64,000 nucleotides of DNA from Candidatus Lindowbacteria bacterium RIFCSPLOWO2_12_FULL_62_27 (lineage in GTDB: Bacteria; Lindowbacteria; 2-12-FULL-62-27): NCBI GenBank assembly GCA_001784175.1, contig MFPR01000017.1, positions 29,024 to 93,023 of the forward strand, read 5' to 3'. How positions within the stretch are numbered: the first letter of the stretch is position 1; every line of letters begins with the position of its first letter. A model generated the notes under the pieces. The model was not told where the DNA came from. It ran no database searches and saw only the letters and a program-made list of their open reading frames with translations. The position numbers were made by a program, and so were the translations under genes. Below are positions 14,244 to 37,610 of the stretch, piece by piece.

Positions 14244-14249
14244 GCCGCT

Positions 14250-15151: not shown

Positions 15152-15160
15152 ATTTCCCCC

Positions 15161-15580: not shown

Positions 15581-15609
15581 TGGTTTTATGAAATGTATTT
15601 TTGAGATAG

Positions 15610-16026: not shown

Positions 16027-16042
16027 CCGGCTGGCGACCATC

Positions 16043-16672: not shown

Positions 16673-16676
16673 GCGC

Positions 16677-17693: not shown

Positions 17694-17702
17694 TCGGAAC
17701 GC

Positions 17703-20387: not shown

Positions 20388-20440
20388 TTTCAATCTCCTC
20401 CCCCCTTGCGGGGGAGGCTGGGTGGGGGGTCGAGGACAAC

Positions 20441-23358: not shown

Positions 23359-23518
23359 ACATTACGCAATTGGCCTTTTATCTGAGTCTCACTCGTCGTC
23401 TCATTGGCACAACTACCATCCTTTCAACTGATTATGCTATTTTATTACATATACCTTGCCATTTGTTAAGTTTTATATTAGCAATGTCGATAGATGAAAT
23501 TAAGCGCCGGGTGGCCAT

Positions 23519-24284: not shown

Positions 24285-24754
24285 CGCCGGAACTCAAAAC
24301 GGCGGCCAAGGTTGCCGCCGTCTCACAGATTCAGAACGTCCGATTGACGTTTGTGCACTCCGATCTGCAACCCGGATTCGAAAAAGTTCTAAACGGAAAA
24401 TCCGAGATTCAGATTGACCACCGGATGACGGAATATATCGTTCGTGAAGACGAACTCCAACTCATCCTCGAATTCAAACTAAAGATCGTTGTTGAATCCG
24501 CAGAGGAGAAGACCGCCCCTCAACCTGGGGAAACTTCCACTCCGCCTCTCGAAATCCACGCAAAATTCTGCGTTGACTACACGGTCAAAGATCTCAAGAC
24601 TTTTTCTGAACAGGACATTCAGGCCTTCGCAAAAATCAACGCCGTTTTCAATTCGTGGCCCTACTGGCGGGAAATCGTCCAATCCACATTTTGGCGCATG
24701 GGCCTGCCGCCGTTCGTCATCCCCGTATTCCGGATGCCGCTGAAGTCAGATTAG
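24281..24754 (+). CDS. SecB-like chaperone of a TAC system
   Basis: AFAKINAVFNSWPYWREIVQSTFWRMGLPPFVIPVF parallels the SecB C-terminal conserved region; ATGA overlap with higA-like stop. Confidence 0.6.
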   Translation: MTPELKTAAKVAAVSQIQNVRLTFVHSDLQPGFEKVLNGKSEIQIDHRMTEYIVREDELQLILEFKLKIVVESAEEKTAPQPGETSTPPLEIHAKFCVDYTVKDLKTFSEQDIQAFAKINAVFNSWPYWREIVQSTFWRMGLPPFVIPVFRMPLKSD

Positions 24755-24767
24755 GCCGGCATTTCAT

Positions 24768-25592
24768 TCACACCTGCTCGACGCTAAACCCCTGCTTGAA
24801 TCTGACTGTCTTGCCGCACTTCGCACAACCCGCCGTCGCGCCATTCAGCACACGGTGCTTTCCGACAAAATTCTCCGCATCGCATGATGGGCACGGGTAT
24901 TTGACCTGCCGGAGGTGGACAATTATTTCATTGCCTTTGCCGGGTTCTACGTCGTAAACCGCTTGGCAGTTGGTGATGGGACACTTCACTCCCCCTTCGG
25001 CTGTGAAACTGCCGGCGCGACGCTGTATCTGCTCTCCGCAGTCTTGGCACTGAAACTCGAAAAACTGTCCGAAATTAACCCTGAAAATCGGCGACGTCAA
25101 AATTGCCTCGCACTCATCGGCAACGGCCGCCGCCCGCTTGATCATTCCAGCCAGATTGGAAGTTTTGCCGGACTCGATCTGGTGGATCGTTAGAGCGTGG
25201 AGAAAATTCCCCAGCGCGTTGTGGTTATCGTTGGCCCACTTCCGCGAAAACCTTCTGTCCTGCCCCAGCATCTGCATTTCCTCGCCCGGTGGCGGGACAC
25301 CGTACGTGTGTTCGATCCCAACCGCCAAGCTGACGCTCTGGTCGGCATGCGGGTCAACTTCGCGCATCTCTGAAATTACGTGTCTGGGCTGCCACTTCTT
25401 GAGCGCATCATTTGGAACTTCTTTCAGGTACGCCAGCAGTTGATCATAGGTGATGTACTCAATCGTGAGACGCAACTCGAGGCAGGCATACCGGACAGAA
25501 GGTTCATCGCCCTTTGCCAACAAATTCCTTGCACGAGCGAGACATTCGCGGGCCACGCATCGCATATCGGGCACGGTTATCGTCGCCGTCAT
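24768..25592 (-). CDS. hypothetical protein with C-terminal multi-zinc-ribbon region
   Basis: Helical N-terminal half; C-terminal CQDCGEQ, CPITNC, CPSCDAEN, CAKCGK cysteine pairs. Confidence 0.5.
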   Translation of the reverse strand: MTATITVPDMRCVARECLARARNLLAKGDEPSVRYACLELRLTIEYITYDQLLAYLKEVPNDALKKWQPRHVISEMREVDPHADQSVSLAVGIEHTYGVPPPGEEMQMLGQDRRFSRKWANDNHNALGNFLHALTIHQIESGKTSNLAGMIKRAAAVADECEAILTSPIFRVNFGQFFEFQCQDCGEQIQRRAGSFTAEGGVKCPITNCQAVYDVEPGKGNEIIVHLRQVKYPCPSCDAENFVGKHRVLNGATAGCAKCGKTVRFKQGFSVEQV

Positions 25593-26146
25593 TTTGCCCC
25601 TCCCCCGGTGGCGTGAGTTATTCTGCCTGTTTTCGGCGGCCCAAACCCACCGGCTTCATCCTTCTTCCGAATAATCTCCTCCTGGTCTTTCTTGGCCTGT
25701 TTTGCCGTGTGCTTATCGCCTCTTCTTGAAGCCTCACTTTCCTCAACGACTTTTCTGGAAAAGGCTTTATCCAAGTCTTCAAAATTCTTAGGAGTCATTT
25801 CGTATTCCTCCTTTAATTGTTCGTTGCAGGACGTGTCAAAGGCCGCCCGCAAGTCAGTTTCCTTATCCAGCCGTGAATCCTCGTCGCTATCGACGTGAAC
25901 ACAAATACAGTTGCCGCCATTCTTCTCAACACATGGCCATTTCTCGTGGGATGGGATCCTATCCGAGAGGGAATCGGTTTGGCCGATATAACGAGGCGTA
26001 TGTGTGCCTCCGTTCGATCCGACCACACGTTTGCTGAATATGTAGACAGCCCCGACATCTTTGAACCTCGTGTCTGTGGTATATGCTTGGAACTTGTACT
26101 CCGTGCCACTTCCTCCTGCAAAAGTAACGTCAGAAATTTTTGACAT
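25589..26146 (-). CDS. GIY-YIG-like nuclease-domain protein
   Basis: GAVYIFSKR ... PRYIGQTDSLSDRIPSH matches the GIY-(10-11)-YIG plus Arg pattern; 4-bp overlap with the downstream zinc-ribbon gene. Confidence 0.45.
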   Translation of the reverse strand: MSKISDVTFAGGSGTEYKFQAYTTDTRFKDVGAVYIFSKRVVGSNGGTHTPRYIGQTDSLSDRIPSHEKWPCVEKNGGNCICVHVDSDEDSRLDKETDLRAAFDTSCNEQLKEEYEMTPKNFEDLDKAFSRKVVEESEASRRGDKHTAKQAKKDQEEIIRKKDEAGGFGPPKTGRITHATGGGAK

Positions 26147-26438
26147 GTGAAACTCCTTCATTATCGAAGCCCGCGGCTGCCGGCGGTCCCAGCCACCGAG
26201 GTGCTCATTGTCATCAAGCTTATGTCGTCTGCAACGCGACGACGTTCTGACCGTTCACGTAAACGTGCGCAACCCGTCGACCATCTAAATCGATGGCCTT
26301 GCTGCACAAAAAAACACTCATCACAGGGGTCGTTTCCCCCCTCTCCTCGACTGGATTGCTCTTGCTGTACGGAAGGCCGCCATGCTAACGTCACTCTGGA
26401 CTAGTGAGGGACGGGGGCGGCCTGCCGGATGCGCAAGC

Positions 26439-26466
26439 GGACGGCGTCGTTACCGTCCTTTTTTAT
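26439..26466 (+). terminator. intrinsic-terminator-like hairpin followed by T-run
   Basis: GGACGG-cgtcgtta-CCGTCC followed by TTTTTTAT; no convincing + strand CDS upstream. Confidence 0.3.
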
Positions 26467-26522
26467 GGCTGTTTCACAATCTGAAAAACAAACACCATAA
26501 AAGCCGTATCATTCATCTGGAC

Positions 26523-26774
26523 TTACTTTCTCCTTCCACGCCTGCTGTGAATCAAGTCGTTCACAGACGCAAACCCGGTTTTCTGAAGAAGCGTTCCGAC
26601 ATGCATATCGTCCCGAACGCCGAAATCGCGGTTGTACTGTTTCTCCAATGTCGAAACGTGCTTGTCGTCACGCGTGTCCCGGAGCGGTCCGTTCGCATTC
26701 CGTGTCCGATAACCCCGCATTCCTGCTGCGTCTTTGGCCATATTCATCACCCCCTTTCTCTGCCGAATGTTCAA
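26523..26774 (-). CDS. small hypothetical protein, divergent from the ATPase operon
   Basis: 83-codon ORF, hydrophilic; coding status uncertain. Confidence 0.25.
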   Translation of the reverse strand: MNIRQRKGVMNMAKDAAGMRGYRTRNANGPLRDTRDDKHVSTLEKQYNRDFGVRDDMHVGTLLQKTGFASVNDLIHSRRGRRK

Positions 26775-26846
26775 TTATCTATATGTACCATATCTGTAAA
26801 AAAAATCAAGGTTTTAGATGATAATGTTATGGGTCACAAAAAAAGC

Positions 26847-26875
26847 TTGACAAAAACATGAATTTATCATAGAGT
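26847..26875 (+). promoter_or_regulatory. putative sigma70-type promoter for the ATPase-subtilase operon
   Basis: Consensus TTGACA at 26847-26852, 17-nt spacer, TAGAGT -10-like hexamer; preceded by an A7 tract. Confidence 0.2.
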
Positions 26876-26881
26876 CACAAT

Positions 26882-28012
26882 ATGAAAGGTCTTCCGTTTA
26901 TAGGCCAATTGGCCAAAATGTCACTGAAATCTCACAACCAAGAGGCCACCCCTTATGTGGAGGCGCTTATCCGTTTGGCCGAGGAAGAAGGGGATGTTAA
27001 ATCGGCCAAGAAACTGGCGGCAATCCTCGAAGATGCCCGAAAACGGGGATTTGTCGGGTCTAATTCGTCCTCGTCGCCCGGTGATCGATATCCGATGACA
27101 ACGTCTTCCGCGACAATGGAAATGCCTGTATCGATATCGAAATTCCTGGAAGACTCCCTGCCGGCGCCGCCGGAACGGCCGACTCTGGATGCTTCCGTAT
27201 CGCAAGGTATTCGAGATTATATTTTTCATGCTTCACATGGATTGAAGGAGAACATCTTTTTTGTCGGACCTTCGGGTACAGGCAAGACCTTGACGGCTGC
27301 ATGGCTTGCCGCACAATTGGAAAAGCCGTTGTATCGTCTGGCTTATCCTCGGGTCTTCGATAGTTATCTTGGCAGAACCGCTAGAAATCTGGTCGCGGCG
27401 TTCGAGGAGGTTAAACTCCTGGGTGGGATCCTTTTTATTGACGAGGTGGACGCCATTTTGAGGTCTCGGGAACTTACAGGCGACCACGGCGAGATGCAGC
27501 GGACGGTCAATGTGCTGCTCATGGAAATCGATAGAGCCCGCGATGAATTACCGATCTTTGCCGCGACCAATCTGTTCCATAAGGTGGATACGGCGGTGGC
27601 CAGACGATTTCATCTGATACTCCACTTCAATTTGCCCTCTGACTTTTTGCGCGAGCATTATGTTCGACTGAAGGTGAAACAATATATTCCTTCGTACCTG
27701 ATGACGTCTTTGATCAGGCTGACGGAAGGATTCTCCTACGCGGATTTGGAAAAGTTGCTTGGTTGCATGCCGGATTTCGATTTACCTCCGACCGCGTTTT
27801 GGCCGGAATTCTTGCGCGTTCTTTCACAAACGTCGCCACCCGCGACCGCTCAATCTATTTCAGAATTCGCGCATTCGCCATCCCCGATACAGGCGAGAAA
27901 GCTGATTGAATGGGGTGTGGAGAAACAAGTCGTCACTCAGATGTTTGGGATATCTTCTGCCCTTCTGACGAAATGGATTCAGGGAGAGAAGCTGGAGGTA
28001 GTCCATGGCTGA
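26882..28012 (+). CDS. AAA+ ATPase (IetA-like)
   Basis: Walker A GPSGTGKT, Walker B ILFIDEVD, sensor region AATNLFHKVD. Confidence 0.75.
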   Translation: MKGLPFIGQLAKMSLKSHNQEATPYVEALIRLAEEEGDVKSAKKLAAILEDARKRGFVGSNSSSSPGDRYPMTTSSATMEMPVSISKFLEDSLPAPPERPTLDASVSQGIRDYIFHASHGLKENIFFVGPSGTGKTLTAAWLAAQLEKPLYRLAYPRVFDSYLGRTARNLVAAFEEVKLLGGILFIDEVDAILRSRELTGDHGEMQRTVNVLLMEIDRARDELPIFAATNLFHKVDTAVARRFHLILHFNLPSDFLREHYVRLKVKQYIPSYLMTSLIRLTEGFSYADLEKLLGCMPDFDLPPTAFWPEFLRVLSQTSPPATAQSISEFAHSPSPIQARKLIEWGVEKQVVTQMFGISSALLTKWIQGEKLEVVHG

Positions 28013-30413
28013 CGAACCGGGTCGGCCGCGAAGCAGCATCCTCCGGGTTGATAAGCGGAAACAGAGGACGAAAGAGTTTACCGATAAGCGGACTGGGGGT
28101 GGGTATAAAAAGATTTTTCCGGATGTACAAGAACGCTTGACCTTCGTCGCCCATCAACTGGATATCGCCATCGACGATTACAAGTCCGCTTACGCCCTGA
28201 CGGAGTCATCCGCCCCGTACCTGGTATTTGAATTGCAGCCATCGGCCATCGCCAAATCTCACAGCGCCTTGGACGTGTTAAATGATTGCGGGCTCGAAGT
28301 CGTTGCCACTCGGACTCTGGAGGAGAAGATTGTGCATGGGGTCGAAGGGGCCTTTAAGCGGCTCGGGGGCGATTTGGTGATGGCCGCGAAAGATGCCCCG
28401 ACGGACGAACAACTCAAAAAATTGGATGCGGAAGATAAGGAGATTCGGAAGATAAAAAGGGAAGAAAAACGACTTGGAAAAGAAAGTGATGCCAAGAAAA
28501 CGGTTCACCGCTATCTGCCGGGTGGGAAGTTTTCATGGAACGAGGTGGCCCAGTTCTCAACGTTCCGGAATGTCGGGTTCATACGTCCTGAAGAGAAAAT
28601 GATGGTTCCGGCCAATTTCGAATCGGCGCCGGTCTTTGTCTCGACATTCCCGTTGTGTGACAGCGCAAACGACGACATCAGAATATGGATTACATGCATT
28701 GATAGCATCATCAAGAAATACAAAACGGGTATCCGTGTTTTACGCGCCAATAAGAAATTCATGGAAAATATACAGGAACACGCGTCGGGTTTGGAATGCG
28801 ATTGGAATTTTAAAGTGAATCGGGAATACAAATCCCATCAAAAATCCTTTGTGTTTCTGATTGAAAATGCGGGTGTCAAAGCGGTGCGTGAGTTGGCCGG
28901 GTGCGAGTTTGTGCGTACGGTGGCTTTGGGACATATCCAAACAGATGTGTTGCGCGCATCTTCAAAGTTGTCCATACCATCCCCGCCTGCGGCGATTCGA
29001 TCTTTGCCGGCGGCGGGGTTGGTGGACACGGGTATTGCATCTCCTTCAAAATTGGATCCCTATATCACTTTCCGTGGTGGAGAAAATACTATCCGCAATA
29101 AAAAAGTGTTTCATGCAACGGACGTGGCCTATCTCCTTGTCCACAATGGCGCCGCCACGCCTTGGAAACCGGACGTGGCCGGATTGCCGTGTGCCATCCG
29201 CGACGTGGCCAGAATTGATGGTGGAGACGTTGACGGGGATCAGCTGCGGGCGGCCATCTGGGAGGCAACCCGGGATTCGTCGGGGGATGGAACTGTGAAT
29301 TTTTCGGCATATGTGAACGAGGGGAGGCGGGCGAAGCCTACGCCGGAAGTCTCTGTGTTTGGTGAACTGTTGGATGATATGTCATTGGAGGCCGAAAATC
29401 TCATGATCGTTTGTTCCGCCGGTAATTCCGGATCGGTGGGAATGGATTCTCCCGCCGACGGAGTTCATGTGGTTTCCGTAGGTGCCTTTACCCGCACACC
29501 GCAAGGAAACTTTGTACGGTCGGATTACTCCTGTCACGGCGGCGGGATCGCGCACAATGCCAAGCCCACTTTTGTTGTACCTGTCCATGACTTGAATAAT
29601 AAGGATTCTACCTGGGATACACTCATTCCATCGGGTTCGCCTGGCACAAGTTTCGCTGCTCCGGTTGCCACGCGAGTTCACGCCGGCCTACGGCATCGTG
29701 GATATAATCGAGATGAAGCTTTGGCGCTGATGGTGCACCACGCAAAACATCCGGGGAAGGATGTTTATTACAAGCCATCGTCAAAAGAAATTGAGGAGTT
29801 TGGGTTTGGGGTGGTTCCTTCTATCAATGAATGCGACCCGCCGGATGGTTCGAGGATAACGTTGATCTACGATGTTCCCGTCAAACTCGGCAAATTTTAT
29901 GAATTGAGATTGCCGATACCGCAAGAGCTTTCGGATTATTCGGCATTTGCCCGTCTGACTGCATACACTCGCGCGCCATGCAGCCGAGAAATGGGTGAGG
30001 AATATGTTGCCGCCGAGGTTCCGACACATCTGAGAATGTATAAAAAAGAGGTCAAAAAGAATGGAGTGCCATATGTGGATTTGCCGCCGGAGCCGGTCGA
30101 CTGGAAAGCCCGATACGAGGAACATCGCATTAAATATGGATGGAAATGGGGCACGCTGAGGCGATATAGCAAGACCATCCGGTTCGGAAAATATAAAGAA
30201 TTTGCTCTAAGGATTGGTCCGGTTATATGGCGGAAATGGGTACCAGGGACTGTGAAAGGACAAGAAACAAAGGTGCAGTGTGTTCTTTCGTTTTATCCGC
30301 TTGAGGGCGAAGCACCGCCGTTTTTTGATTTCTTCCGCAGGGCGTTTGTTGCCGCGCAGGTGGAAGTGGAGGTTCCATTGGAGGTGCAAATCGAATTGGA
30401 AGGTGAAAGTTGA
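28005..30413 (+). CDS. S8 subtilisin-family serine peptidase with N-terminal non-catalytic region (IetS-like)
   Basis: Asp motif GLVDTGIASP, His region FHATDVAYLLV, Asn CSAGNSGS, Ser GTSFAAPVA; 8-bp overlap with the ATPase gene. Confidence 0.75.
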   Translation: MADEPGRPRSSILRVDKRKQRTKEFTDKRTGGGYKKIFPDVQERLTFVAHQLDIAIDDYKSAYALTESSAPYLVFELQPSAIAKSHSALDVLNDCGLEVVATRTLEEKIVHGVEGAFKRLGGDLVMAAKDAPTDEQLKKLDAEDKEIRKIKREEKRLGKESDAKKTVHRYLPGGKFSWNEVAQFSTFRNVGFIRPEEKMMVPANFESAPVFVSTFPLCDSANDDIRIWITCIDSIIKKYKTGIRVLRANKKFMENIQEHASGLECDWNFKVNREYKSHQKSFVFLIENAGVKAVRELAGCEFVRTVALGHIQTDVLRASSKLSIPSPPAAIRSLPAAGLVDTGIASPSKLDPYITFRGGENTIRNKKVFHATDVAYLLVHNGAATPWKPDVAGLPCAIRDVARIDGGDVDGDQLRAAIWEATRDSSGDGTVNFSAYVNEGRRAKPTPEVSVFGELLDDMSLEAENLMIVCSAGNSGSVGMDSPADGVHVVSVGAFTRTPQGNFVRSDYSCHGGGIAHNAKPTFVVPVHDLNNKDSTWDTLIPSGSPGTSFAAPVATRVHAGLRHRGYNRDEALALMVHHAKHPGKDVYYKPSSKEIEEFGFGVVPSINECDPPDGSRITLIYDVPVKLGKFYELRLPIPQELSDYSAFARLTAYTRAPCSREMGEEYVAAEVPTHLRMYKKEVKKNGVPYVDLPPEPVDWKARYEEHRIKYGWKWGTLRRYSKTIRFGKYKEFALRIGPVIWRKWVPGTVKGQETKVQCVLSFYPLEGEAPPFFDFFRRAFVAAQVEVEVPLEVQIELEGES

Positions 30414-31075
30414 TGTCCCGTATACTCTTGAACCTCCCCCCTCACGACCGCCCCCGCGAGAAATTCAAAGCCAAAGGCTCCGAATCCCTGTCCGACCAGG
30501 AGCTATTGGCCATCCTGCTTGGCAGCGGCACCAAAAAATCGGACGTTTTGAAAGTCGCCGAACATATACTCAAAGAGATCGACGGCTCTAAGAAAAAATG
30601 GAGGTTGGCGGATCTTCAGAAAATCGAAGGTGTCGGCGAAGCCAAGGCCATGCAGATTCTGGCTGCGATGGAGTTTGCCCGGCGCCGCATCCAGCCCGCC
30701 GGATTTAAAATCTCGTTCCCGGCTGACGTCGTCCCCCTCATTCGCCACTACGCCGACCGCAAACAAGAACATCTGATCTGCGTCACTCTGAACGGCGCAA
30801 ACGAAATCATCGCCACCCGCGTCGTTACGGTCGGCCTCGCCGACAAAATCCAAGTCCACCCCCGTGAACTCTTCGCCGACCCCCTGACCGACCGCGCCAC
30901 CGCCGTCATCATCGCCCACAATCATACCGGCTCGGACCTCATCCCGACCCGCGAAGACATCGAGACCACCCGCCGCCTCAAGGCCGCCGGCGAAACGATT
31001 GGCATCAAATTGCTCGACCACATCATATTCAACAAAACCGGCTATTACAGTTTTCTCGAGAAAGATAATTTGTGA
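30410..31075 (+). CDS. radC: RadC-like JAB/MPN domain protein
   Basis: N-terminal HhH-like LSDQELLAILLGSG and JAB motif AVIIAHNHTGSDLIPTREDIETTRRL; ATGA overlap with subtilase stop. Confidence 0.8.
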   Translation: MMSRILLNLPPHDRPREKFKAKGSESLSDQELLAILLGSGTKKSDVLKVAEHILKEIDGSKKKWRLADLQKIEGVGEAKAMQILAAMEFARRRIQPAGFKISFPADVVPLIRHYADRKQEHLICVTLNGANEIIATRVVTVGLADKIQVHPRELFADPLTDRATAVIIAHNHTGSDLIPTREDIETTRRLKAAGETIGIKLLDHIIFNKTGYYSFLEKDNL

Positions 31076-31088
31076 ATTGAGGTAATCC

Positions 31089-32723
31089 ATGGCCACCGGT
31101 CGCAATCAGCCGTGCCCCTGCGGAAGCGCAAGGAAATACAAGAGGTGTTGCGGCAATCCGCTAAAAATGTCGCTTAAGGGCATTCATCGCCCGACAGAAA
31201 GCCGCGTCGCGGACGGAATCGCCAAAGCGCTCGAACATCACAAGGCCTCTGAACTCATCCGATGTCAACAGCAGGGACTGGGCAAGCCGATCATCTCTAC
31301 AGAACATCAGGGCAGGCGCCTCGTGGCTGTTGGAAACAAAGTCTACCATTCGACCAAATTCAAAACATTCCCTGATTTTCTGTTCGCTTATGTAAAAGGC
31401 AAACTCGGTTCGGAGTGGGGCAATGCGGAGATCGTCAAGCCCCTGGAGGAGAGGCATATTATTCTGCAATGGTACAACGAGTATTACCTCTTCCAAAAAC
31501 GGCACTTCGACAAAGACCACGAAATCCAGTCTTTTCCGGCAACGGGTGTGGTCAATTGTTATCTCGGCCTTGCCTACAGTCTGTACTTGCTGGAGCACAA
31601 CGTCGAGCTCCAGGACCGTTTGCTCAAACGGCTAAAAGACTCGGCAAATTTCCAGGGAGCGTATTACGAATTAATCGTCGCAAACTGTCTGATTCGAGCC
31701 GGATTTGATTTGGTTCTCGAAGATGAAACCGATCGTGCCTCGAAGCATTGTGAATTTTCCGCCGTTTCACAGAAGACTGGAAAAAAATACTGGGTCGAAG
31801 CCAAGATGCGGGCGGTTTCCGGCATTCTCGGTAAATCCGACCATGACGGCACCCAATCGTTGGAACCGACTTCCTCGCTGATACAGCATGTGAACAAGGC
31901 GCTTGCAAAGCCGGCGGCGGATGAACGACTCATTTTCATCGATCTCAACACCGATCCGCCCGACGGGCAGAGTCTGCCGGATTGGATGGAACGAGCCGCA
32001 CAAAAACTTGAAGGCCTCGAAAAAACTTACCAAAAAGGGGAGCGCGCTTATATTTTTGTGACGAACATGGCGTTTCACCGGCGCTTGACGGACGCCCGCC
32101 CGGCTGGCGCCGTTTTGGTTCACGGATTTGGAATTCCCGATTTTGGAAGGCCGGGGGAATATCGGCTTACGGAAATTTACAGGAAAAGACAAAAACATAA
32201 GGATGCCTATCACATTTTTGAAGCCGTCAAAGAATATCCGAAATTTCCTTCGACGTTTGACGGTAGTTTGCCATCCGAAACCTTTGGTGATGGAGGTGGT
32301 CGCATTATTATTGGAGAAACGTATTTTTTTCCTGATATGGACGAGAAGGGAATTACAGGGACCGTCACTTCTGCCATGGTGAGTGAAACTGAAAAGACAG
32401 AACATTTGGGCATTACGACAAAAGATAACGGGTCATTTATTCTCAGCAGGCCGATGACAGAGGCGGAACTGACAGATTACAAAAACCATCCCGAGGCGTT
32501 TTTTGGTGTGATTCTTCAACCACCAGGGAACGCGAATGACCCGTACGAATTATTTGAATTTTTTGTTGGATGTTATAAAAACTCGTCTAAAGAGAAATTG
32601 CTAGAATTTTTAAAGGATTCGCAGGACACCGACTCCCTCGCGGCGTTGCCTCATATGGATTTGGTACTCGAATACTGCGAACGATTGGTCGCTGCCGCAG
32701 TGGCTGGCCAAGAAAACAGATGA
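31089..32723 (+). CDS. SEC-C-motif protein with PD-(D/E)xK-like core
   Basis: N-terminal NQPCPCGSARKYKRCCG; central FDLVLEDETD ... KYWVEAKM resembling a D-E-K nuclease triad. Confidence 0.55.
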   Translation: MATGRNQPCPCGSARKYKRCCGNPLKMSLKGIHRPTESRVADGIAKALEHHKASELIRCQQQGLGKPIISTEHQGRRLVAVGNKVYHSTKFKTFPDFLFAYVKGKLGSEWGNAEIVKPLEERHIILQWYNEYYLFQKRHFDKDHEIQSFPATGVVNCYLGLAYSLYLLEHNVELQDRLLKRLKDSANFQGAYYELIVANCLIRAGFDLVLEDETDRASKHCEFSAVSQKTGKKYWVEAKMRAVSGILGKSDHDGTQSLEPTSSLIQHVNKALAKPAADERLIFIDLNTDPPDGQSLPDWMERAAQKLEGLEKTYQKGERAYIFVTNMAFHRRLTDARPAGAVLVHGFGIPDFGRPGEYRLTEIYRKRQKHKDAYHIFEAVKEYPKFPSTFDGSLPSETFGDGGGRIIIGETYFFPDMDEKGITGTVTSAMVSETEKTEHLGITTKDNGSFILSRPMTEAELTDYKNHPEAFFGVILQPPGNANDPYELFEFFVGCYKNSSKEKLLEFLKDSQDTDSLAALPHMDLVLEYCERLVAAAVAGQENR

Positions 32724-32821
32724 TTTGGAATATTGGGATCCGGCCGGTGCGCAATTTGTGGACAACGCGCCGCCTTCTCTTTCACTGTCTCTCTTTCTAT
32801 ATCTCTCTTTCCCGTGCACTC

Positions 32822-32865
32822 TGTGTCACCATTCGCGGGCATCGTGTGTCACCATCTCGGTGACA
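32822..32865. repeat. two direct 11-bp repeats TGTGTCACCAT plus inverted GGTGACA forming a 7-bp palindrome
   Basis: Repeat copies at 32822-32832 and 32845-32855; inverted core at 32859-32865; preceded by a CT-rich tract 32775-32815. Confidence 0.5.
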
Positions 32866-32870
32866 GGGAG

Positions 32871-33248
32871 TCACATATCGGGGATTGTTGTGCACGGTTT
32901 TGGGGATAACGGCAGTTCGTCCTGGATGGCGAGGAGGGTGTAGGTGTTTGACCGCCGGCGGCGGCCTACGGACGGCGGGCTTCGTTTGATCGAGATGAGG
33001 CCGAGGTCGGCCAGTTGGCGGACGACGCGGATCACGTGGCGGCGCGAGAGGGCGAGCATCCGGGCGAGGGTGTCGTAGGAGGGGTGGCAGGAGCGGTGGT
33101 TGAAATCCGCGAACCGCGCCAGGGCCGCGTAGACGCCGACGCCGATGGCGCCGATTTCGGCGGCGTAGTTGTCGATTACGATGTGGTCGATGCGAAGCCA
33201 GTGGCCCGATGGGGCCCTGGGTTTGGGGTCCGGCATTGGGTCATCCAT
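32871..33248 (-). CDS. winged-helix DNA-binding protein
   Basis: SYDTLARMLALSRRHVIRVVRQLADLGLI wHTH-like segment. Confidence 0.4.
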   Translation of the reverse strand: MDDPMPDPKPRAPSGHWLRIDHIVIDNYAAEIGAIGVGVYAALARFADFNHRSCHPSYDTLARMLALSRRHVIRVVRQLADLGLISIKRSPPSVGRRRRSNTYTLLAIQDELPLSPKPCTTIPDM

Positions 33249-33260
33249 TTCTCCGCGCGA

Positions 33261-33521
33261 TCATTTGCCGGACGGCGGCCGGTAGGACTCGAAGATGAAG
33301 CGGTCGAGATCTTCCCGCCGGAATCTCCGGCTCTTGCCGATTTTGGAATAGGGCAGCCTGCCGCGCGCCACGAACGCGTCGAGGGCGTTCAGCGTCACCC
33401 GCAGATAACACGCCGCCTCCTTCGAACTCAGGTAGGGCGTGCTCGGCACCGGCACATCCGGCACCCGGCACCGGCTCTCGGTGCCGGCCTCTTTTTGCTC
33501 ATTATCCGTCGGGTGATCCAT
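33261..33521 (-). CDS. excisionase/AlpA-like HTH DNA-binding protein
   Basis: YLSSKEAACYLRVTLNALDAFVARGRLPYSKIGKSRRFRREDLDRFI matches the excisionase-type HTH. Confidence 0.5.
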   Translation of the reverse strand: MDHPTDNEQKEAGTESRCRVPDVPVPSTPYLSSKEAACYLRVTLNALDAFVARGRLPYSKIGKSRRFRREDLDRFIFESYRPPSGK

Positions 33522-33735
33522 GAATCAGTGTCCTTCCGCCTCTTCCGCGTCCTCGGACGCCTGAGTTGTATATCAGGAGAGATTATGTCTGTCAAGAAGC
33601 CATTATTGTTTTTAGAGTGATTATGTGGTATATAACACTGTCAGAAAGGATTGTATCTTTGTGAGAGAGCCGCTTGACAGAGGGGGTGGCCCATGTTGAA
33701 GTCGCCCGTAAGCGTATTTCCGAGGAGGTGGCCGG

Positions 33736-34152
33736 ATGGACAAATCGCTGGGAGAAGTGTTTCGAGAGCAGACGCATGCCAAGGACTTGACCGCGGAGGA
33801 TCTGGTCAAAAAAACGGGTGTCGGCACCCGTTCCCTGGTTTTCCAATTCTGGGCGGGCCGGACCTTTCCGCCGCTGCACAAGCTGATTTCGATGTTCAAC
33901 CTGGTTGGAATGGAATTCCACATATATGTCAACGGCCAGTTGCGAAAACTGAAACTGGACGGCCGGCGCGGTCTTTCTGACGCCGAGCGTGTGCTCGTCG
34001 GCGATCCCGGCGAAGTGGGCCTGCTGGATGGCCTGACGCCTTCCCAGGGAGAGGCGATTCTGGCGCAGGCGAATTTTTTCAGGGAATACAACGCCAGGAA
34101 GCAATCGGCGAAACCCGCCTCCGCCCGGCGTCGCGCGGACGCGGCGGCATAG
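33736..34152 (+). CDS. XRE-like HTH regulator
   Basis: LTAEDLVKKTGVGTRSLVFQFWAG HTH-like; GAGGAGG ribosome-binding site; divergent from the excisionase-like gene. Confidence 0.45.
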   Translation: MDKSLGEVFREQTHAKDLTAEDLVKKTGVGTRSLVFQFWAGRTFPPLHKLISMFNLVGMEFHIYVNGQLRKLKLDGRRGLSDAERVLVGDPGEVGLLDGLTPSQGEAILAQANFFREYNARKQSAKPASARRRADAAA

Positions 34153-34162
34153 GAGAAAGACC

Positions 34163-35335
34163 ATGCGCGTCAGGGTCATTCAACGAAAGGGCGCTTGGTG
34201 GATCGACTATTACTATCTGGACGAAACGGGCGCTTTGCGAAGAAAATACGAAAAGATCGGCCCGGGCAGGAAATTTGCGGAGACGGTGGCCGCCAAGCGC
34301 CGCGTGGAAATTCTGGAAGGAAAATTTCTGGACCGCCGTCGTTTCAAGCCCATCACGTTTGCGGACTTTATCCGGGAATTCGACGACAAGCACATGCGGT
34401 TTTTGAGAATTTACCGGCATGGCGGCAAGCAGTATCTCCGCCATCTGGTTTCCTTCTTTGGCGCAAGGCAACTCATGTCCATTTCGCAATTCGACGCCGC
34501 GCGGTTCAAGGTCCATTTCATGAGCCGGAAAACGCGCGCTGGAACCCCGCCGGCGAAATCGACCTTCAACCGGTATCTGTCGACTCTCATTTGCATCATG
34601 AACAAAGCGGTCGAATGGGGACATCTCCCGCAAAATCCGCTGTCGCGGGTGAAGAAGGAGCGAGAGGACGAAAAGCCGATGCGAATTTTAACGGCCGCCG
34701 AAAAAGTACGTCTCCTCGAAGTCGCGCTGGAGGATGGCCAGGAAGCGCACTCGCTCATCACGTTGGCGCTCAACACAGGTCTTAGGCGTGGTGATCTTCT
34801 GCGTCTTCAAATGAACGCGGCCATGATGCGTGAGCGAGAAATCCATCTCACGATGCAAAAAACCCGCCACGCCATTCATGTGCCGCTCAACAGAGCCGCC
34901 GAGTCTGCGATCAAAGCGTTGAACCGGGGCGACGACGAATTGTTATTCCCACCGAGGCGCGCGGACTCGAAAGACTCGCGCTGGCACTATGCATTGTGGC
35001 TAAAACTTGCAAATAGGGCCCAACTTCGTTATTGTCGTTTCCATGATTTGCGTCACACCTTCGCCACGGATCTTTTGCGGCGGGGCGTGAACATCAAAGT
35101 GGTCAAGGAGCTCCTGGGTCACCGGTCGATCCAAACGACAATGCGATATTTGCATTTCGTGGAGATCGACCGAAGGGCCGCGGTGGACACGCTGGAACCC
35201 GCCGCCGACGCCCGTGAGCCCCGTATGGCCCGGCAGTTTCCAATGCCAACGAATGCCGACTTACAGAACGCAACTGGAAACCTACTGGAGACCAAATGGA
35301 GACCAGAACGTCAAGTCGAGGAAGCGATCGCATGA
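34163..35335 (+). CDS. int: tyrosine-type site-specific recombinase/integrase
   Basis: C-terminal catalytic region HDLRHTFATDLLRRGVNIKVVKELLGHRSIQTTMRYLH with R, H-x-x-R and Y. Confidence 0.9.
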   Translation: MRVRVIQRKGAWWIDYYYLDETGALRRKYEKIGPGRKFAETVAAKRRVEILEGKFLDRRRFKPITFADFIREFDDKHMRFLRIYRHGGKQYLRHLVSFFGARQLMSISQFDAARFKVHFMSRKTRAGTPPAKSTFNRYLSTLICIMNKAVEWGHLPQNPLSRVKKEREDEKPMRILTAAEKVRLLEVALEDGQEAHSLITLALNTGLRRGDLLRLQMNAAMMREREIHLTMQKTRHAIHVPLNRAAESAIKALNRGDDELLFPPRRADSKDSRWHYALWLKLANRAQLRYCRFHDLRHTFATDLLRRGVNIKVVKELLGHRSIQTTMRYLHFVEIDRRAAVDTLEPAADAREPRMARQFPMPTNADLQNATGNLLETKWRPERQVEEAIA

Positions 35336-35380
35336 AAGTACATTCGCAATCCTCTATACATATTGGAGTACTGTAAACAC

Positions 35381-35464
35381 GGGGAGGTGCTCCAGTGGAC
35401 AACGAGAGCAGACTGTAAATCTGCCGCCCTTCGGGCTACGGAGGTTCGAATCCTCCCCTCCCCA
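35381..35464 (+). tRNA. tRNA-Tyr (anticodon GTA), class II with long variable arm
   Basis: Acceptor stem GGGGAGG/CCTCCCC, anticodon stem GCAGA/TCTGC with loop CTGTAAA, variable-arm hairpin GCCC-ttcg-GGGC, T-arm GGAGG-TTCGAAT-CCTCC, discriminator A; CCA not encoded. Confidence 0.8.
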
Positions 35465-35496
35465 TACATGGAGGTACAGGTCATGGGTCATGAGTC

Positions 35497-36225
35497 ATGA
35501 CTTCCAAGCCAGGGCTGTTTGAAACCTTTCTGTGCGTGCGCAGGCGTGCGCCATTTCTGGATTTTCATCTGATGAGGCTCAAGGGATCGGCCCGAAGGCT
35601 GCACATTCCTGTTGAGGCGGGGCTTGCCGCCGAGGTGTCGCGGCGTGTGGAGGCGCTCGGGTCGCATCCGCATCGCGGGCGGTTGGAGGTTTCGAGCGCG
35701 GGCGAGGTTCGATTGACATTTGCGGGGTATGACGCGCGCTTGATTTTTCGCAAAACGCCGATCGCCGAAAAACTTATTTCCCTTGCCGCGCCGCGCGGGT
35801 ATCCCGGCGCGTGGGCGGGGATGAAGACATTTCCGCGAATGCTCCTGGATCAGGCGCACGCCGAGGCAGGACGGCGGGGCGCGGCCGATGCGGTACTGGC
35901 GCGCCGATGGGTTTACGAAACGGCGCAGGGGAATTTGTTCTGGCTGAGGGGCGATGTCCTGCACACGCCGGCGGTCGGGCTGGGATGCCTTCCGGGAATT
36001 CTGCGGGGATGGGTGATCGGTGAGGCGCGGAGACTGGGCGTGAAGGTGCGCGAGGGCCGGTTTTCGCCGTCGAGCCTGACAGGCGCCGAGTCGATCTTCA
36101 GGACAAACGCGCTGATCGGCATTCGGTGGGTCCGTGAAATTGCGGGTCTTGGCCGGTGGCGCCGGCCCGTTCATCCGCTGGTCATGGAACTTTACCGGCG
36201 GTGGTGTGATAAGATCCGGTCATGA
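35497..36225 (+). CDS. pabC: class IV aminotransferase-fold protein, aminodeoxychorismate lyase-like
   Basis: Size and general similarity to PabC/class IV aminotransferases; overlaps ruvX start by 4 bp. Confidence 0.5.
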   Translation: MTSKPGLFETFLCVRRRAPFLDFHLMRLKGSARRLHIPVEAGLAAEVSRRVEALGSHPHRGRLEVSSAGEVRLTFAGYDARLIFRKTPIAEKLISLAAPRGYPGAWAGMKTFPRMLLDQAHAEAGRRGAADAVLARRWVYETAQGNLFWLRGDVLHTPAVGLGCLPGILRGWVIGEARRLGVKVREGRFSPSSLTGAESIFRTNALIGIRWVREIAGLGRWRRPVHPLVMELYRRWCDKIRS

Positions 36226-36638
36226 CGCTTTTGGCCGTTGATTTCGGGACCAAGCGACTGGGTGTGGCGGTGACGGACAGCGCCGAACGGATGGCGCTGC
36301 CACTGGCGTCGTTTGCCGTCCGGTCGGAAGACGAGGGCGTGGACAAGATCGCGCGCATCGCACAGGAGCGCGGCGTCCGGGAGATCATCGTGGGCCTGCC
36401 GATCGGCCACCGGGGCGGGGAGACTCAGATGAGCGCGCAGGTGCGCGCATTCGGAGAAAAACTGCGAGTGAGAATCGCCGTCCCCGTGACGTTTTCGGAC
36501 GAGCGCTTCACGACCAAGCTTGCGGAGGCCCCGATGATGGAGGCGGGCGTCAGCGCCAAAAAGCGCCGTGGGCTCGTCGACGCCGGCGCGGCTTCGCTGC
36601 TCCTACTGGCCGTCCTCGACGCGCGCCGTCCGAGCTGA
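36222..36638 (+). CDS. ruvX: Holliday-junction-resolvase-like pre-16S rRNA nuclease YqgF/RuvX
   Basis: N-terminal LAVDFGTKRLGVAV signature; 138 aa. Confidence 0.85.
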   Translation: MTLLAVDFGTKRLGVAVTDSAERMALPLASFAVRSEDEGVDKIARIAQERGVREIIVGLPIGHRGGETQMSAQVRAFGEKLRVRIAVPVTFSDERFTTKLAEAPMMEAGVSAKKRRGLVDAGAASLLLLAVLDARRPS

Positions 36639-36641
36639 AGC

Positions 36642-37610
36642 ATGCGGTGGCTCCGCTCGGTCATTCTGTTGGCGTGCGTTGCTCTATTGGGCTGGAGTTT
36701 CCATTTTGCCGTGTCGCGTCCCCTGCCGGAACTGCGCGAGGGCGTGGTGGAGATCCGGCGCGGGTGGGGCCTGTCGGAGATCGGGCGCGCGTTTTTCGGA
36801 TCGAATCGGTGGTCCGTCGGCTCGTTCAAGGCATATGTGATTCTGACCGGCCGCAGCCGGCGGCTCAAAGCCGGCGAGTATGAATTGGACCGGGATTCGA
36901 TTCGAAGCCTGACGCGGAAACTGGCCGCCGGCCGAGTGCTTCAGTACCGCGTCACCGTCGCGGAGGGTGTGTGGGCGTCGGACATCGCGGTGCTCCTGGA
37001 GGGCGCGGGCCTGTGCGACCGCGAGAGGCTGCTTTCGTTGATCCGCGACCCCGCCTTCGCCACGGACATGGCCGGCGCCCGTGTTCCGTCGCTGGAGGGC
37101 TATCTCTTTCCTGAAACGTATTTTTTCACAAAGGGAATGTCGGAAGAGGACATTCTGAAAACGTTCGTCGCGCGGTTCAACGAAAAGGCCCGGCCGCTGC
37201 TTCGTTCCGACACGCATTCGGCGCACGACCTCCTGACGCTGGCCTCGATGGTGGAGCGCGAGGCTGCAAGGGACGAGGAGCGGCCGGTGATCGCGGGCGT
37301 GTTCTGGAACCGGCTCCGGCGCCGGATGCCCCTCGAATCGTGCGTCACCGTCGAGTACGCGCTGGGCCGGAAGAAAAAGAAGCTGACCGACGAGGACCTC
37401 CGGGCGGACTCGCCCTACAACACCTACCGCCGCGCGGGCCTTCCGCCGGGCCCGGTGGGCAATCCCGGCCTGCGGGCGATTGCGGCGACCGTGATGCCGG
37501 CCGCCACCGGATACCTTTTTTTCGTCGCCGCCGGCGACGGAAGCCATCACTTTTCCGCCACGTGGGCTGAGCACCTGCGCGCCAAGCGTCGGGCGGGGCG
37601 GGGGAGATAG
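36642..37610 (+). CDS. mltG: endolytic murein transglycosylase MltG (YceG family)
   Basis: N-terminal membrane helix; EGYLFPETY and SPYNTYRRAGLPPGPVGNPG motifs. Confidence 0.85.
   Translation: MRWLRSVILLACVALLGWSFHFAVSRPLPELREGVVEIRRGWGLSEIGRAFFGSNRWSVGSFKAYVILTGRSRRLKAGEYELDRDSIRSLTRKLAAGRVLQYRVTVAEGVWASDIAVLLEGAGLCDRERLLSLIRDPAFATDMAGARVPSLEGYLFPETYFFTKGMSEEDILKTFVARFNEKARPLLRSDTHSAHDLLTLASMVEREAARDEERPVIAGVFWNRLRRRMPLESCVTVEYALGRKKKKLTDEDLRADSPYNTYRRAGLPPGPVGNPGLRAIAATVMPAATGYLFFVAAGDGSHHFSATWAEHLRAKRRAGRGR

What the first reader, a model, noticed from the sequence alone, without database searches (positions are those of the whole stretch)
32871..35464. Integrase module abuts the 5' side of tRNA-Tyr: unusual geometry for a tRNA-integrated island
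The wHTH, excisionase-like, XRE and tyrosine integrase genes end 45 bp before the 5' end of a co-oriented tRNA-Tyr(GTA). Elements that target tRNA genes usually insert at the 3' end, placing the element downstream of the tRNA; here the accessory DNA lies upstream. Either the element uses a different att site or the tRNA is element-borne.
Basis: partly seen in the sequence, partly recalled or inferred. Interest (0 to 1): 0.45.

Follow-up and report, generated by a model that had tools for sequence, protein, structure and literature searches.

The report
Island rebuilds tRNA-Tyr 5' half
A large foreign DNA island in an uncultured Lindowbacteria genome sits upstream of tRNA-Tyr, most likely because its integrase family recombines in the anticodon loop and carries a replacement 5' half of the tRNA next to the integrase gene; this arrangement is rare but already documented.

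Summary
A 390-aa tyrosine integrase (34163-35335, +) stops 45 bp before a well-scoring, co-oriented tRNA-Tyr(GTA) (35381-35464). DNA to the left is foreign (about 50% GC, defence and phage genes). DNA to the right is host core (about 65% GC).

The geometry is not chance. Seven integrase relatives (27-50% identity) have a whole, co-oriented tRNA 0-58 nt after the integrase stop, covering six different anticodons. Two of them (L049 tRNA-Arg, L050 tRNA-Thr) are resolved at both ends. The first 41-42 nt of the tRNA, from the 5' end through the anticodon loop, recur 100% identically at the far end of a 7.7 or 10.4 kb element.

Each element also carries a matching pair of 11-nt-period repeats inside the integrase 3' end and near the far end. 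The window has the same repeats (35275-35305) at the same distance from the anticodon.

So the element supplies the tRNA 5' part, and the tRNA next to int is a rebuilt hybrid. The window's own far end was not found within 53.8 kb.

This 5'-fragment configuration is a known minority (159 of 3919 Islander islands; pelagiphages). Verdict: real, explained, a new member of a known kind.

The parts
1..32870 (.). Foreign DNA upstream of the integrase module, part of a region of at least 53.8 kb. It holds T2SS/T4P-like genes, phage portal and small-terminase-like genes, a type I R-M system, a HigB-like toxin, IetAS, RadC and a SEC-C protein. Its left end lies outside the window.
   Evidence: GC is 44-60% against about 65% in the core. 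Low GC and phage capsid and protease genes continue 18.4 kb left of the window on the same scaffold.
32871..33248 (-). Winged-HTH protein (125 aa), HTH_36.
   Evidence: PF13730 at 1.9e-10.
33261..33521 (-). Excisionase-like, MerR-type HTH_17 protein (86 aa). It is the candidate recombination directionality factor.
   Evidence: PF12728 at 6.1e-11. phrog_66 'excisionase and transcriptional regulator' at 1.9e-05.
33736..34152 (+). Conserved 138-aa gene directly upstream of int and co-oriented with it. It probably forms an operon with int. The N-terminus looks HTH-like by eye only. The overlapping minus-strand ORF 33592-34179 is probably a shadow ORF.
   Evidence: This ORF is the called gene in public assemblies. 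Homologues sit in the same position in L003 (90%), L007/L026 (51%), L005 (35%) and L004 (28%). Pfam and PHROGs give no hit.
34163..35335 (+). Tyrosine integrase (390 aa). It is transcribed toward the att site.
   Evidence: PF00589 at 1.7e-31. R208, K233, R297, H320 and Y329 are invariant in alignments with 4 and 13 relatives.
35275..35305 (+). Three tandem direct repeats with an 11-nt period: TGGAAACCT, TGGAGACCA, TGGAGACCA. They lie inside the integrase 3' coding end and are inferred to be P-arm (arm-type) binding sites.
   Evidence: These are the only exact TGGAGACCA copies in the window. The same kind of pair sits at the same place in every relative, with an element-specific sequence. It is duplicated near the far end in the resolved elements L035, L049 and L050. 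The background for the regular expression is 3.4 hits per 64 kb on both strands. The two exact units lie 129 and 118 nt before the anticodon, against 126 and 115 in L049 and L050.
35336..35380 (+). A 45-nt spacer between the int stop and the tRNA. It is inferred to be element-derived P-arm DNA. Any promoter for the rebuilt tRNA must lie here or inside int.
   Evidence: The spacer is 76% identical to the L003 variant, while the adjoining 26 nt of tRNA are identical. No sigma-70 consensus promoter was found.
35381..35464 (+). tRNA-Tyr(GTA), inferred to be a rebuilt hybrid gene at the int-proximal junction (attR = P-O-B'). The anticodon loop is at 35413-35419 and the anticodon at 35415-35417. The predicted element-supplied identity block is about 35381-35422.
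   Evidence: ARAGORN and Rfam at 53.8 bits. The block boundary is inferred by analogy with the 41- and 42-nt 5' blocks of L049 and L050.
35465..37610 (+). Host flank (B'). A 32-nt gap is followed by class IV aminotransferase (35497-36225), RuvX (36222-36638) and YceG/MltG (36642-37610). There is no P'-type repeat pair here.
   Evidence: Pfam hits, GC of 59-66%, and the regular-expression scan.

Best explanation
The integrase module is the int-proximal end (attR, P-O-B') of a large integrated element. That element is a prophage-like or defence island of at least 53.8 kb, in a Candidatus Lindowbacteria genome.

The element entered the host tRNA-Tyr gene by tyrosine-recombinase crossover at the anticodon loop. 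It did so in the '5'-complementing' orientation. Its attP carries a copy of the 5' part of the tRNA, about nt 1-42, just downstream of int.

Integration therefore rebuilds a whole tRNA-Tyr next to int. The 5' part comes from the element and the 3' part from the host. The host's own 5' part, with the native promoter, is displaced to the far (left) end of the element, outside the window.

The tandem 11-nt-period repeats inside the int 3' end (35275-35305) are the P-arm binding sites of this attP.

Shown:
- The anatomy of the junction.
- Recurrence of this geometry with six different anticodons.
- Both ends of two relatives.

Inferred:
- That the window's element has the same far end.
- That the repeats bind Int.
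- That the rebuilt tRNA is transcribed from element DNA. The closely following aminotransferase-ruvX-mltG genes may be too.
For: 1. Recurrence of the geometry. A whole, co-oriented tRNA follows the int stop in seven relatives:
- L004, Gln, 3 nt gap, 50% identity.
- L005, Ser, 26 nt gap, 46% identity.
- L049, Arg-CCT, 21 nt gap, 35% identity.
- L050, Thr-CGT, 13 nt gap, 34% identity.
- L027, Pro, where the int ORF overlaps the tRNA by 10 nt, 32% identity.
- L034, Arg-CCT, 58 nt gap, 27% identity.
- L003, a 94% aa variant with the same tRNA-Tyr start.

2. L049 is resolved at both ends. tRNA nt 1-41 (11093-11133) recur 100% at 3369-3409 (E 9e-19). Host core genes lie to the left. The element between them is 7.7 kb and low in GC. 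ARAGORN finds no tRNA at the left copy.

3. L050 is resolved at both ends. tRNA nt 1-42 (11082-11123) recur 100% at 637-678 (E 7e-19). The element is 10.4 kb, and Rnf and enolase genes lie to the right.

4. The repeat pairs match within each element. The pair in the int 3' end matches a pair 121-131 nt inside the far end. In L049 this is TGGGCACA at 11001 and 3530. In L050 it is TAGACACT..TGGACACC at 10989 and 806. In L035 it is TGGACACC at 10977 and 4530.

5. L035 is the mirror image. Its tRNA-Ala is antiparallel to int, and a 47-nt 3' fragment (46/47 identical) marks the far end. The identity block again ends just past the anticodon loop.

6. The window fits. It has the repeats at 35275-35305, spaced 129 and 118 nt from the anticodon against 126 and 115 in L049 and L050. 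Host DNA without a P' pair lies to the right.

7. Precedent. Islander Table 1 lists 159 islands with a 5' tDNA fragment (PMC4383910). Pelagiphage attP sites just downstream of int carry a partial tRNA 5' end, and the junctions were verified by PCR (10.1101/410191). K. pneumoniae islands integrate upstream of arg2 (10.1101/2020.11.02.365908).
Against: - The window's own far end was not found. No tRNA-Tyr segment longer than 12 nt and no TGGAGACC-type tandem pair occurs in 53.8 kb to the left. That span is the window plus 18.4 kb of the same scaffold.
- That span is 5-8 times longer than the resolved relatives. It looks like a mosaic.
- No island-free relative exists in the databases searched. 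The next-best homologue of the flanking aminotransferase is 47% identical, so no empty site could be compared.
- The two resolved co-oriented relatives are only 34-35% identical to the window integrase. In a rough NJ tree they fall outside its closest clade.
- No consensus promoter was found for the rebuilt tRNA.
- The closest co-oriented clade includes L007, where int is followed by only a 3' fragment of tRNA-Gln. The rule is therefore not uniform.
Confidence: 0.75

Rival explanations
1. attP carries a whole tRNA-Tyr gene. Integration then leaves a whole tRNA-Tyr at both ends. The island would lie classically downstream of a second, promoter-bearing copy further left. The copy next to int would be a redundant duplicate.
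For: In L004, the closest non-identical relative at 50%, int is followed by a whole tRNA-Gln. About 150 nt past the anticodon there is a P'-type tandem pair (5736). This looks like an uninterrupted P-O-P' site. Pelagiphage HTVC011P leaves two tRNA-Leu genes after integration. Logan contigs end inside the tRNA: L003 at nt 26 and L013 from nt 49. That could reflect a repeated tRNA.
Against: The L004 downstream pair (TGGAGACC/TGGATACC) does not match its own P pair (TAGCCACT/TGGCCACC). In all three resolved elements the P and P' pairs match. L004 may therefore be a junction with a neighbouring resident element. Both resolved co-oriented elements have only a 5' fragment at the far end. The contig-end positions do not fit a simple k=31 repeat model.
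Confidence: 0.12
2. The adjacency is incidental, or the integrase uses another site. That site could be an intergenic sequence, or another tRNA upstream whose 3' fragment lies next to int. The tRNA-Tyr would then be wholly host.
For: No att repeat was found in the window. tRNA genes are common island neighbours.
Against: Seven independent relatives show the same int-to-tRNA juxtaposition within 0-58 nt, with six different anticodons. Two of them have exact 41-42 nt tRNA 5' repeats at the other end. The 45-nt spacer contains no tRNA-like 3' fragment.
Confidence: 0.05
3. The junction is a fossil. The integrase module is the surviving end of an element whose far end has been lost or rearranged. 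The low-GC DNA to the left would be a mosaic of several unrelated acquisitions that can no longer excise as a unit. This concerns the element's present state and is compatible with the 5'-complementing origin.
For: At least 53.8 kb lacks a far end, against 6.6-10.4 kb for resolved relatives. GC changes stepwise at about 12, 23 and 33 kb. Phage head genes are interrupted by T2SS-like, TPR and M48 genes. All 18 or more public contigs carrying the same RuvX show the island or break off, and none shows an empty site.
Against: The integrase is full length with its catalytic residues. The P repeats are exact. The excisionase-like gene is intact. A 94% aa variant (L003) shows purifying selection on int. 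A prophage longer than 54 kb is not implausible, and 10.9 kb of scaffold remain unread.
Confidence: 0.3

Closest known systems
Islander/TIGER-type tDNA islands with a 5' tDNA fragment (159 of 3919 islands in Islander; PMC4383910)
   Same: The island lies upstream of the regenerated tRNA. A tyrosine integrase is responsible. The anticodon-centred attachment site corresponds to Islander class 'A'. In relatives L049 and L050 the displaced fragment is a 5' end fragment in direct orientation.
   Different: The window's own 5' fragment was not recovered. The integrase clade comes from uncultured lineages (Lindowbacteria and other metagenome bins) and has no named relatives above 36% identity outside four clusters.
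HTVC019P-type pelagiphages such as HTVC021P, 022P, 109P and 120P (bioRxiv 10.1101/410191)
   Same: attP lies just downstream of int and contains a partial 5' end of the target tRNA. Integration disrupts the host tRNA and rebuilds it with the phage-derived 5' part. The junctions were verified experimentally.
   Different: Those are T7-like podoviruses of SAR11 with 11-46 bp cores. Here the identity block in relatives is 41-42 nt, and the element is a large island with defence cargo. Sequence relatedness of the integrases was not tested.
Classical anticodon-loop tRNA integration (Williams 2002, sublocation A; from my own knowledge, for example P22 and HP1)
   Same: Crossover occurs at the symmetric anticodon stem-loop. 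int is transcribed toward the att site. Family members L002, L035 and L037, plus 11 IMG/VR relatives, show exactly this arrangement, with the tRNA 3' end facing int.
   Different: In the window the tRNA is flipped relative to int. The P arm must therefore carry the 5' part, and a promoter, instead of the 3' part.
Lambda-type heterobivalent integrases with arm-type sites
   Same: Repeated short motifs occur in both arms at about -126/-115 and +127 to +139 from the crossover centre. An excisionase-like gene lies nearby.
   Different: The P-arm repeats lie inside the integrase coding sequence, and their 11-nt period shifts the reading frame. Binding is untested. Pfam does not detect an arm-binding domain in the window protein, although PF24624 Int_N is recorded for most relatives.
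K. pneumoniae GIs of integrase clade I.d integrating upstream of arg2 (bioRxiv 10.1101/2020.11.02.365908)
   Same: These islands lie upstream of the target tDNA, in contrast to all the others in that study.
   Different: That study reports a D-loop sublocation. Here the sublocation is the anticodon loop.

Membership tests
Tyrosine recombinase / phage integrase (PF00589) | The catalytic domain scores above the curated Pfam threshold. | tested here: met
   109.8 bits against a cut-off of 27.1, E 1.7e-31, residues 176-331.
Tyrosine recombinase / phage integrase (PF00589) | The catalytic residues R..K..(H)xxR..H..Y are conserved. | tested here: met
   R208, K233, R297, H320 and Y329 are invariant among 5 and 14 aligned relatives. 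Position 294 is H or Y.
tDNA-integrating island, anticodon-loop sublocation | A direct repeat of a tRNA end fragment marks the other end of the island. | tested here: inconclusive
   No repeat was found in the window or in 18.4 kb further left. The far end is probably beyond the sequence that could be fetched. The feature is met in relatives L035, L049 and L050.
tDNA-integrating island, anticodon-loop sublocation | The identity block ends at the anticodon loop. | not testable with these tools
   This needs the window's attL or an empty site. In relatives the blocks end 2-4 nt past the loop: L049 at nt 41, L050 at nt 42, and L035 with a 47-nt block counted from the 3' end.
5'-tDNA-fragment (5'-complementing) configuration | The island lies on the 5' side of the whole, regenerated tRNA. 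| tested here: met
   The strand and coordinates of the tRNA. GC and gene content on the two sides.
5'-tDNA-fragment (5'-complementing) configuration | The displaced fragment at the far end is the tRNA 5' part, in direct orientation. | not testable with these tools
   The far end lies outside the reachable sequence. The feature is met in L049 (3369-3409) and L050 (637-678).
5'-tDNA-fragment (5'-complementing) configuration | The element supplies transcription for the rebuilt tRNA. | tested here: inconclusive
   No sigma-70 consensus was found in 34900-35600. Gaps of -10 to 58 nt in relatives force any promoter into int. Lindowbacteria promoter rules are unknown.
Heterobivalent (lambda-like) integrase with arm-type sites | Repeated arm motifs occur in both the P and P' arms. 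| tested here: inconclusive
   The P repeats are present at 35275-35305. The P' pair was not found because the far end is missing. Both arms are seen in L035, L049 and L050.
Heterobivalent (lambda-like) integrase with arm-type sites | An N-terminal arm-binding domain is present. | tested here: inconclusive
   There is no Int_N or Arm-DNA-bind hit for the window protein at E<=0.01. PF24624 is recorded for most relatives.
Prophage | A complete set of head, packaging, tail and lysis genes is present. | tested here: inconclusive
   A portal gene (phrog_3753, 3.4e-45) and a weak small-terminase hit were found. An S78 protease and a weak capsid hit lie left of the window. No large terminase or tail genes were identified, and non-phage genes are interspersed.

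The most novel reading that the evidence does not exclude
Within one integrase family, the same arm architecture is used with the tRNA in either orientation. That architecture has int reading toward the core, P repeats inside the int 3' end, and P' repeats about 130 nt beyond the core. Lineages have switched more than once between supplying the tRNA 3' part and the 5' part, perhaps through intermediates whose attP holds a whole tRNA (L004).

In the 5' mode, the host tRNA depends on transcription coming out of the element's integrase operon. In this genome the same may apply to the aminotransferase-ruvX-mltG genes, which start 32 nt after the tRNA. That would couple expression of essential host genes to the element and penalise its imprecise loss.
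Probability: 0.2. Interest if true: 0.55.

Novelty: new member of a known kind. Interest (0 to 1): 0.3.

Why it matters
Island finders and annotators usually assume that an element lies downstream of its tRNA and look for 3' fragments. A clade that systematically sits upstream and rebuilds the 5' half will be mis-bounded or missed.

The family described here gives a simple sequence signature for mapping such elements in metagenome bins with no close relatives. The signature has three parts:
- int reading into a whole tRNA;
- 11-nt-period repeat pairs in the int 3' end and near the far end;
- a 41-42 nt tRNA 5' repeat.

The finding also raises a testable question. How is a rebuilt tRNA, cut off from its native promoter, transcribed from inside an integrase gene?

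For this window the practical result is modest. The flagged oddity is real and has an ordinary, documented explanation.

Tried and rejected
1. Empty-site comparison. The flanking aminotransferase has no homologue above 47% identity. Every public contig carrying the identical RuvX has the island or breaks off. The host is a Candidatus Lindowbacteria MAG, a name taken from P0123. No empty site could be compared.

2. Search for relatives in genome contigs with the single integrase. It gave only two distant loci. The metagenome scan with the close-family alignment gave nine.

3. Walking left along scaffold_45 in two steps, 18.4 kb in total. No tRNA-Tyr repeat, no P' pair and no second integrase turned up. 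The last 10.9 kb could not be fetched because look-ups are restricted to window proteins and earlier hits.

4. Three exact-pattern scans of IMG/VR: the far end of L044, the tRNA-Tyr 5' 41-mer and the P-repeat region. All returned nothing.

5. Integrase remnants downstream of the tRNAs, searched by tblastn. None was found.

6. Reading L004 and L007 as free attP forms. I downgraded this. Their downstream repeat pairs do not match their own P pairs, whereas the P and P' pairs match in all three resolved elements. They may instead be junctions with neighbouring resident elements.

7. Inferring a second tRNA copy from Logan contig ends inside the tRNA (L003, L013). The positions do not fit a k=31 repeat model, so this is left unexplained.

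8. Promoter search upstream of the tRNA. Nothing was found.

9. Phage-record homologues. All are at or below 29% identity and uninformative.

10. Survey of 80 IMG/VR relatives. It found only classical antiparallel tRNAs (11 cases) and no co-oriented one.
Full report
**1. The observation**

ARAGORN finds one tRNA in the window, tRNA-Tyr(GTA), at 35381-35464 on the + strand. Rfam RF00005 matches the same span full length at 53.8 bits, against a gathering score of 29. The 390-aa ORF 34163-35335 (+) is a tyrosine integrase: PF00589 at 1.7e-31. Its catalytic R208, K233, R297, H320 and Y329 are invariant among relatives. The stop codon ends 45 nt before the tRNA 5' end.

To the left lie four genes:
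- a conserved + strand 138-aa gene (33736-34152);
- an HTH_17 excisionase-like gene (33261-33521, -);
- an HTH_36 winged-helix gene (32871-33248, -).

The overlapping 195-aa minus-strand ORF has no support.

GC is 44-60% from position 1 to 35000 and about 65% from 36000 on. Downstream of the tRNA are class IV aminotransferase, RuvX and YceG/MltG. Upstream are IetAS, RadC, a SEC-C protein, a HigB-like toxin, a type I R-M system, a phage portal and T2SS-like genes. So the accessory DNA does lie on the 5' side of a co-oriented whole tRNA. No tRNA-Tyr segment longer than 12 nt is repeated in the window.

**2. Source and limits of comparison**

The window is identical to ENA ERZ28563660 scaffold_45, which is 232 kb long. 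Window position 1 corresponds to scaffold position 29339. One of its proteins is named in NCBI as coming from a Candidatus Lindowbacteria MAG.

The flanking aminotransferase has no homologue above 47% identity. All public contigs with the identical RuvX carry the island or stop at it. An empty-site comparison was therefore impossible.

I walked 18.4 kb further left on the scaffold. GC stays low to intermediate. The genes include an M48 peptidase, DAGK, metallophosphatases, an S78 prohead protease and a capsid-like protein. There is no tRNA-Tyr repeat and no integrase. The foreign region is thus at least 53.8 kb long, and its left end is unread.

**3. The geometry recurs in the integrase family**

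The integrase is rare. One cluster is 94% identical, three are 46-50%, and everything else is at or below 36%. I fetched contexts for relatives and scanned them for tRNAs.

A whole tRNA, co-oriented with int, follows the int stop in these relatives:

| Locus | tRNA | Gap from int stop |
|---|---|---|
| L004 | Gln | 3 nt |
| L005 | Ser | 26 nt |
| L049 | Arg-CCT | 21 nt |
| L050 | Thr-CGT | 13 nt |
| L027 | Pro | int ORF overlaps the tRNA by 10 nt |
| L034 | Arg-CCT | 58 nt |

L003, the 94% variant, shows the same tRNA-Tyr start.

Other relatives are classical. Their tRNA is on the opposite strand, with its 3' end facing the int 3' end. These are L002 (Arg), L035 (Ala), L037 (Glu) and 11 of 80 IMG/VR relatives. 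None of the 80 is co-oriented.

A rough NJ tree puts the window with L004, L005 and L007 in one co-oriented clade. L027, L049 and L050 form a second co-oriented group next to antiparallel members. The tree has no support values. It suggests that orientation switched more than once.

**4. Both ends resolved in relatives**

*L049.* int is at 10001-11071 and whole tRNA-Arg at 11093-11169. The first 41 nt of that tRNA, from the 5' end through the anticodon loop plus 2 nt, recur 100% at 3369-3409. ARAGORN calls no tRNA there. To the left are PPDK, sigma-70 and a phosphoribosyltransferase. GC falls from about 45% to about 35% inside the 7.7-kb element.

*L050.* int is at 10001-11068 and tRNA-Thr at 11082-11157. 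Its nt 1-42 recur 100% at 637-678. The element is 10.4 kb and low in GC. Rnf and enolase genes lie to the right.

*L035.* This is the mirror image. Its tRNA-Ala is antiparallel to int. A 47-nt 3' fragment (46/47 identical) marks the far end, and the block again ends just past the anticodon loop.

The family therefore recombines at the anticodon loop and always rebuilds the tRNA at the int-proximal junction. When the tRNA is co-oriented with int, the piece carried next to int is the 5' part. The displaced host piece is then a 5' fragment.

**5. A family signature that the window shares**

Every member has two or three tandem direct repeats with an 11-nt period inside the int 3' coding end. The repeats follow the form T[GA]G-N1-2-AC[CT] with an element-specific sequence:

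| Locus | Repeat units |
|---|---|
| Window | TGGAAACCT / TGGAGACCA / TGGAGACCA (35275-35305) |
| L005 | TGGGCACC x2 |
| L049 | TGGGCACA x2 |
| L050 | TAGACACT / TGGACACC |
| L035 | TGGACACC x2 |

In the three resolved elements a matching pair lies 121-131 nt inside the far end. The regular expression has a background of 3.4 hits per 64 kb on both strands.

I read these as P- and P'-arm sites. That reading is an inference, and binding is untested.

The window's two exact units lie 129 and 118 nt before the anticodon. In L049 and L050 the figures are 126 and 115, although the gap from the stop codon to the tRNA differs. No P' pair lies to the right of tRNA-Tyr, as expected for host DNA. None lies in the 53.8 kb to the left either.

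**6. Ambiguous relatives**

In L007 and L026 (48% identity) int is followed by only the 3' part of tRNA-Gln, co-oriented. Rfam scores it 24.3 bits, below threshold. A repeat pair and dndC/dndD-like genes follow. In L004 a whole tRNA-Gln is followed by a repeat pair.

These loci could be uninterrupted attP sites. That would mean some elements carry a whole tRNA. However, their downstream pairs do not match their own P pairs, unlike the resolved elements. They may instead be junctions with neighbouring resident elements. I keep 'whole-tRNA attP' as a rival at 0.12.

**7. Mechanism and consequences**

The shown parts are the junction anatomy, the recurrence, and both ends in two relatives.

The inferred parts are as follows:
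- The window's attP is int, then the 45-nt spacer, then tRNA-Tyr nt 1 to about 42, then a P' arm.
- Crossover occurs in the loop at 35413-35419.
- The host 5' part and its promoter now sit at the far end.

Because gaps in relatives range from -10 to 58 nt, the rebuilt tRNA must be transcribed from within or through int. No sigma-70 consensus was found here. The aminotransferase gene starts 32 nt after the tRNA, so the aminotransferase-ruvX-mltG genes may also depend on that transcription. This last point is speculative.

**8. Comparison with what is known**

Islander reports 3760 islands with a 3' tDNA fragment and 159 with a 5' fragment (PMC4383910). Pelagiphages of the HTVC019P group have attP just downstream of int with a partial tRNA 5' end, and their junctions were verified (10.1101/410191). 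K. pneumoniae clade I.d islands integrate upstream of arg2 (10.1101/2020.11.02.365908).

The configuration is therefore a known minority. What is new here is a further integrase clade from uncultured bacteria that uses it, together with its repeat signature.

**9. Verdict**

- The best explanation is 5'-complementing integration at the anticodon loop, with confidence 0.75.
- The main gap is the unrecovered far end, which also leaves open that the junction is a fossil.
- Novelty: a new member of a known kind.
- Interest: 0.3.

Noticed in passing
window 26882-30413: An AAA ATPase (376 aa) and an S8 subtilase (802 aa) form an overlapping gene pair. They match the IetA and IetS defence-system models of PADLOC (6.3e-44 and 1.1e-39).
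   Followed up: partly
window 16632-23358: A complete type I restriction-modification system: hsdR 17703-20387, hsdM 20384-21856 and hsdS 21853-23358. It is preceded by a weak PD-(D/E)XK_4 protein (16632-17693).
   Followed up: partly
window 23519-24284: A Gp49/HigB-like toxin ORF (23519-23893) overlaps a second small ORF (23868-24284). This is probably a toxin-antitoxin pair.
   Followed up: no
window 30410-32723: A RadC-like JAB protein (30410-31075) and a 544-aa protein with only an N-terminal SEC-C motif (31089-32723) lie between IetAS and the integrase module. Neither has a PADLOC hit.
   Followed up: no
window 33592-34179 (-) versus 33736-34152 (+): The long minus-strand ORF overlapping the region upstream of int is probably a shadow ORF. 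The + strand 138-aa ORF is the one conserved upstream of int in relatives, at 28-90% identity.
   Followed up: yes
window 35465-35501: Only 32 nt separate the tRNA 3' end from the aminotransferase start codon. A 15-nt palindrome, GTCATGAGTCATGAC (35487-35501), overlaps that start codon. This suggests co-transcription of the tRNA with the aminotransferase-ruvX-mltG genes.
   Followed up: no
window 589-4982 and 8487-10521; L022 6904-9984: A T2SS/T4P-type ATPase (GspE-like), four GspF-like membrane proteins, a second degenerate ATPase and a 1026-aa M48 peptidase sit within the foreign DNA. They are interspersed with phage head genes.
   Followed up: no
window 12545-14897; L044 16467-19157: Phage packaging and head genes are split by about 20 kb of unrelated genes. 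In the window there is a portal (phrog_3753, 3.4e-45) and a weak small-terminase hit. Left of the window there is an S78 prohead protease and a capsid-like protein.
   Followed up: partly
window 37703-39175 and 39221-40648: Two tandem paralogous genes for TPR plus beta-barrel-like proteins lie in the host part. Their DNA repeats are 73-78% identical.
   Followed up: no
window about 45000-47100: A host microcompartment-type cluster holds a PTAC-like protein and three EutN/CcmL-like genes with internal DNA repeats (45854, 46646, 46937).
   Followed up: no
L007 3165-3232 and L026 1903-4968: In the 48% relative, int is followed by a co-oriented 3' fragment of tRNA-Gln running from the anticodon stem to the 3' end. 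A repeat pair and dndC/dndD-like genes follow. This is either an attP form or a tandem-island junction.
   Followed up: partly
L027 1328-1337: The integrase ORF runs 10 nt into the co-oriented tRNA-Pro(GGG) gene. Any tRNA promoter must therefore lie inside int.
   Followed up: partly
L003 end (= window 35406) and L013 start (= window 35429): Two Logan (k=31) contigs from different samples end inside the tRNA-Tyr gene, on either side of the anticodon stem-loop. Strain polymorphism, a repeated tRNA or low coverage could each explain this. It remains unexplained.
   Followed up: partly
L044 15114-15194: ARAGORN calls an 81-nt tRNA-Val(GAC) with the anticodon at position 39. The call straddles the junction of two ORFs in the region left of the window and is probably a false positive.
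   Followed up: no
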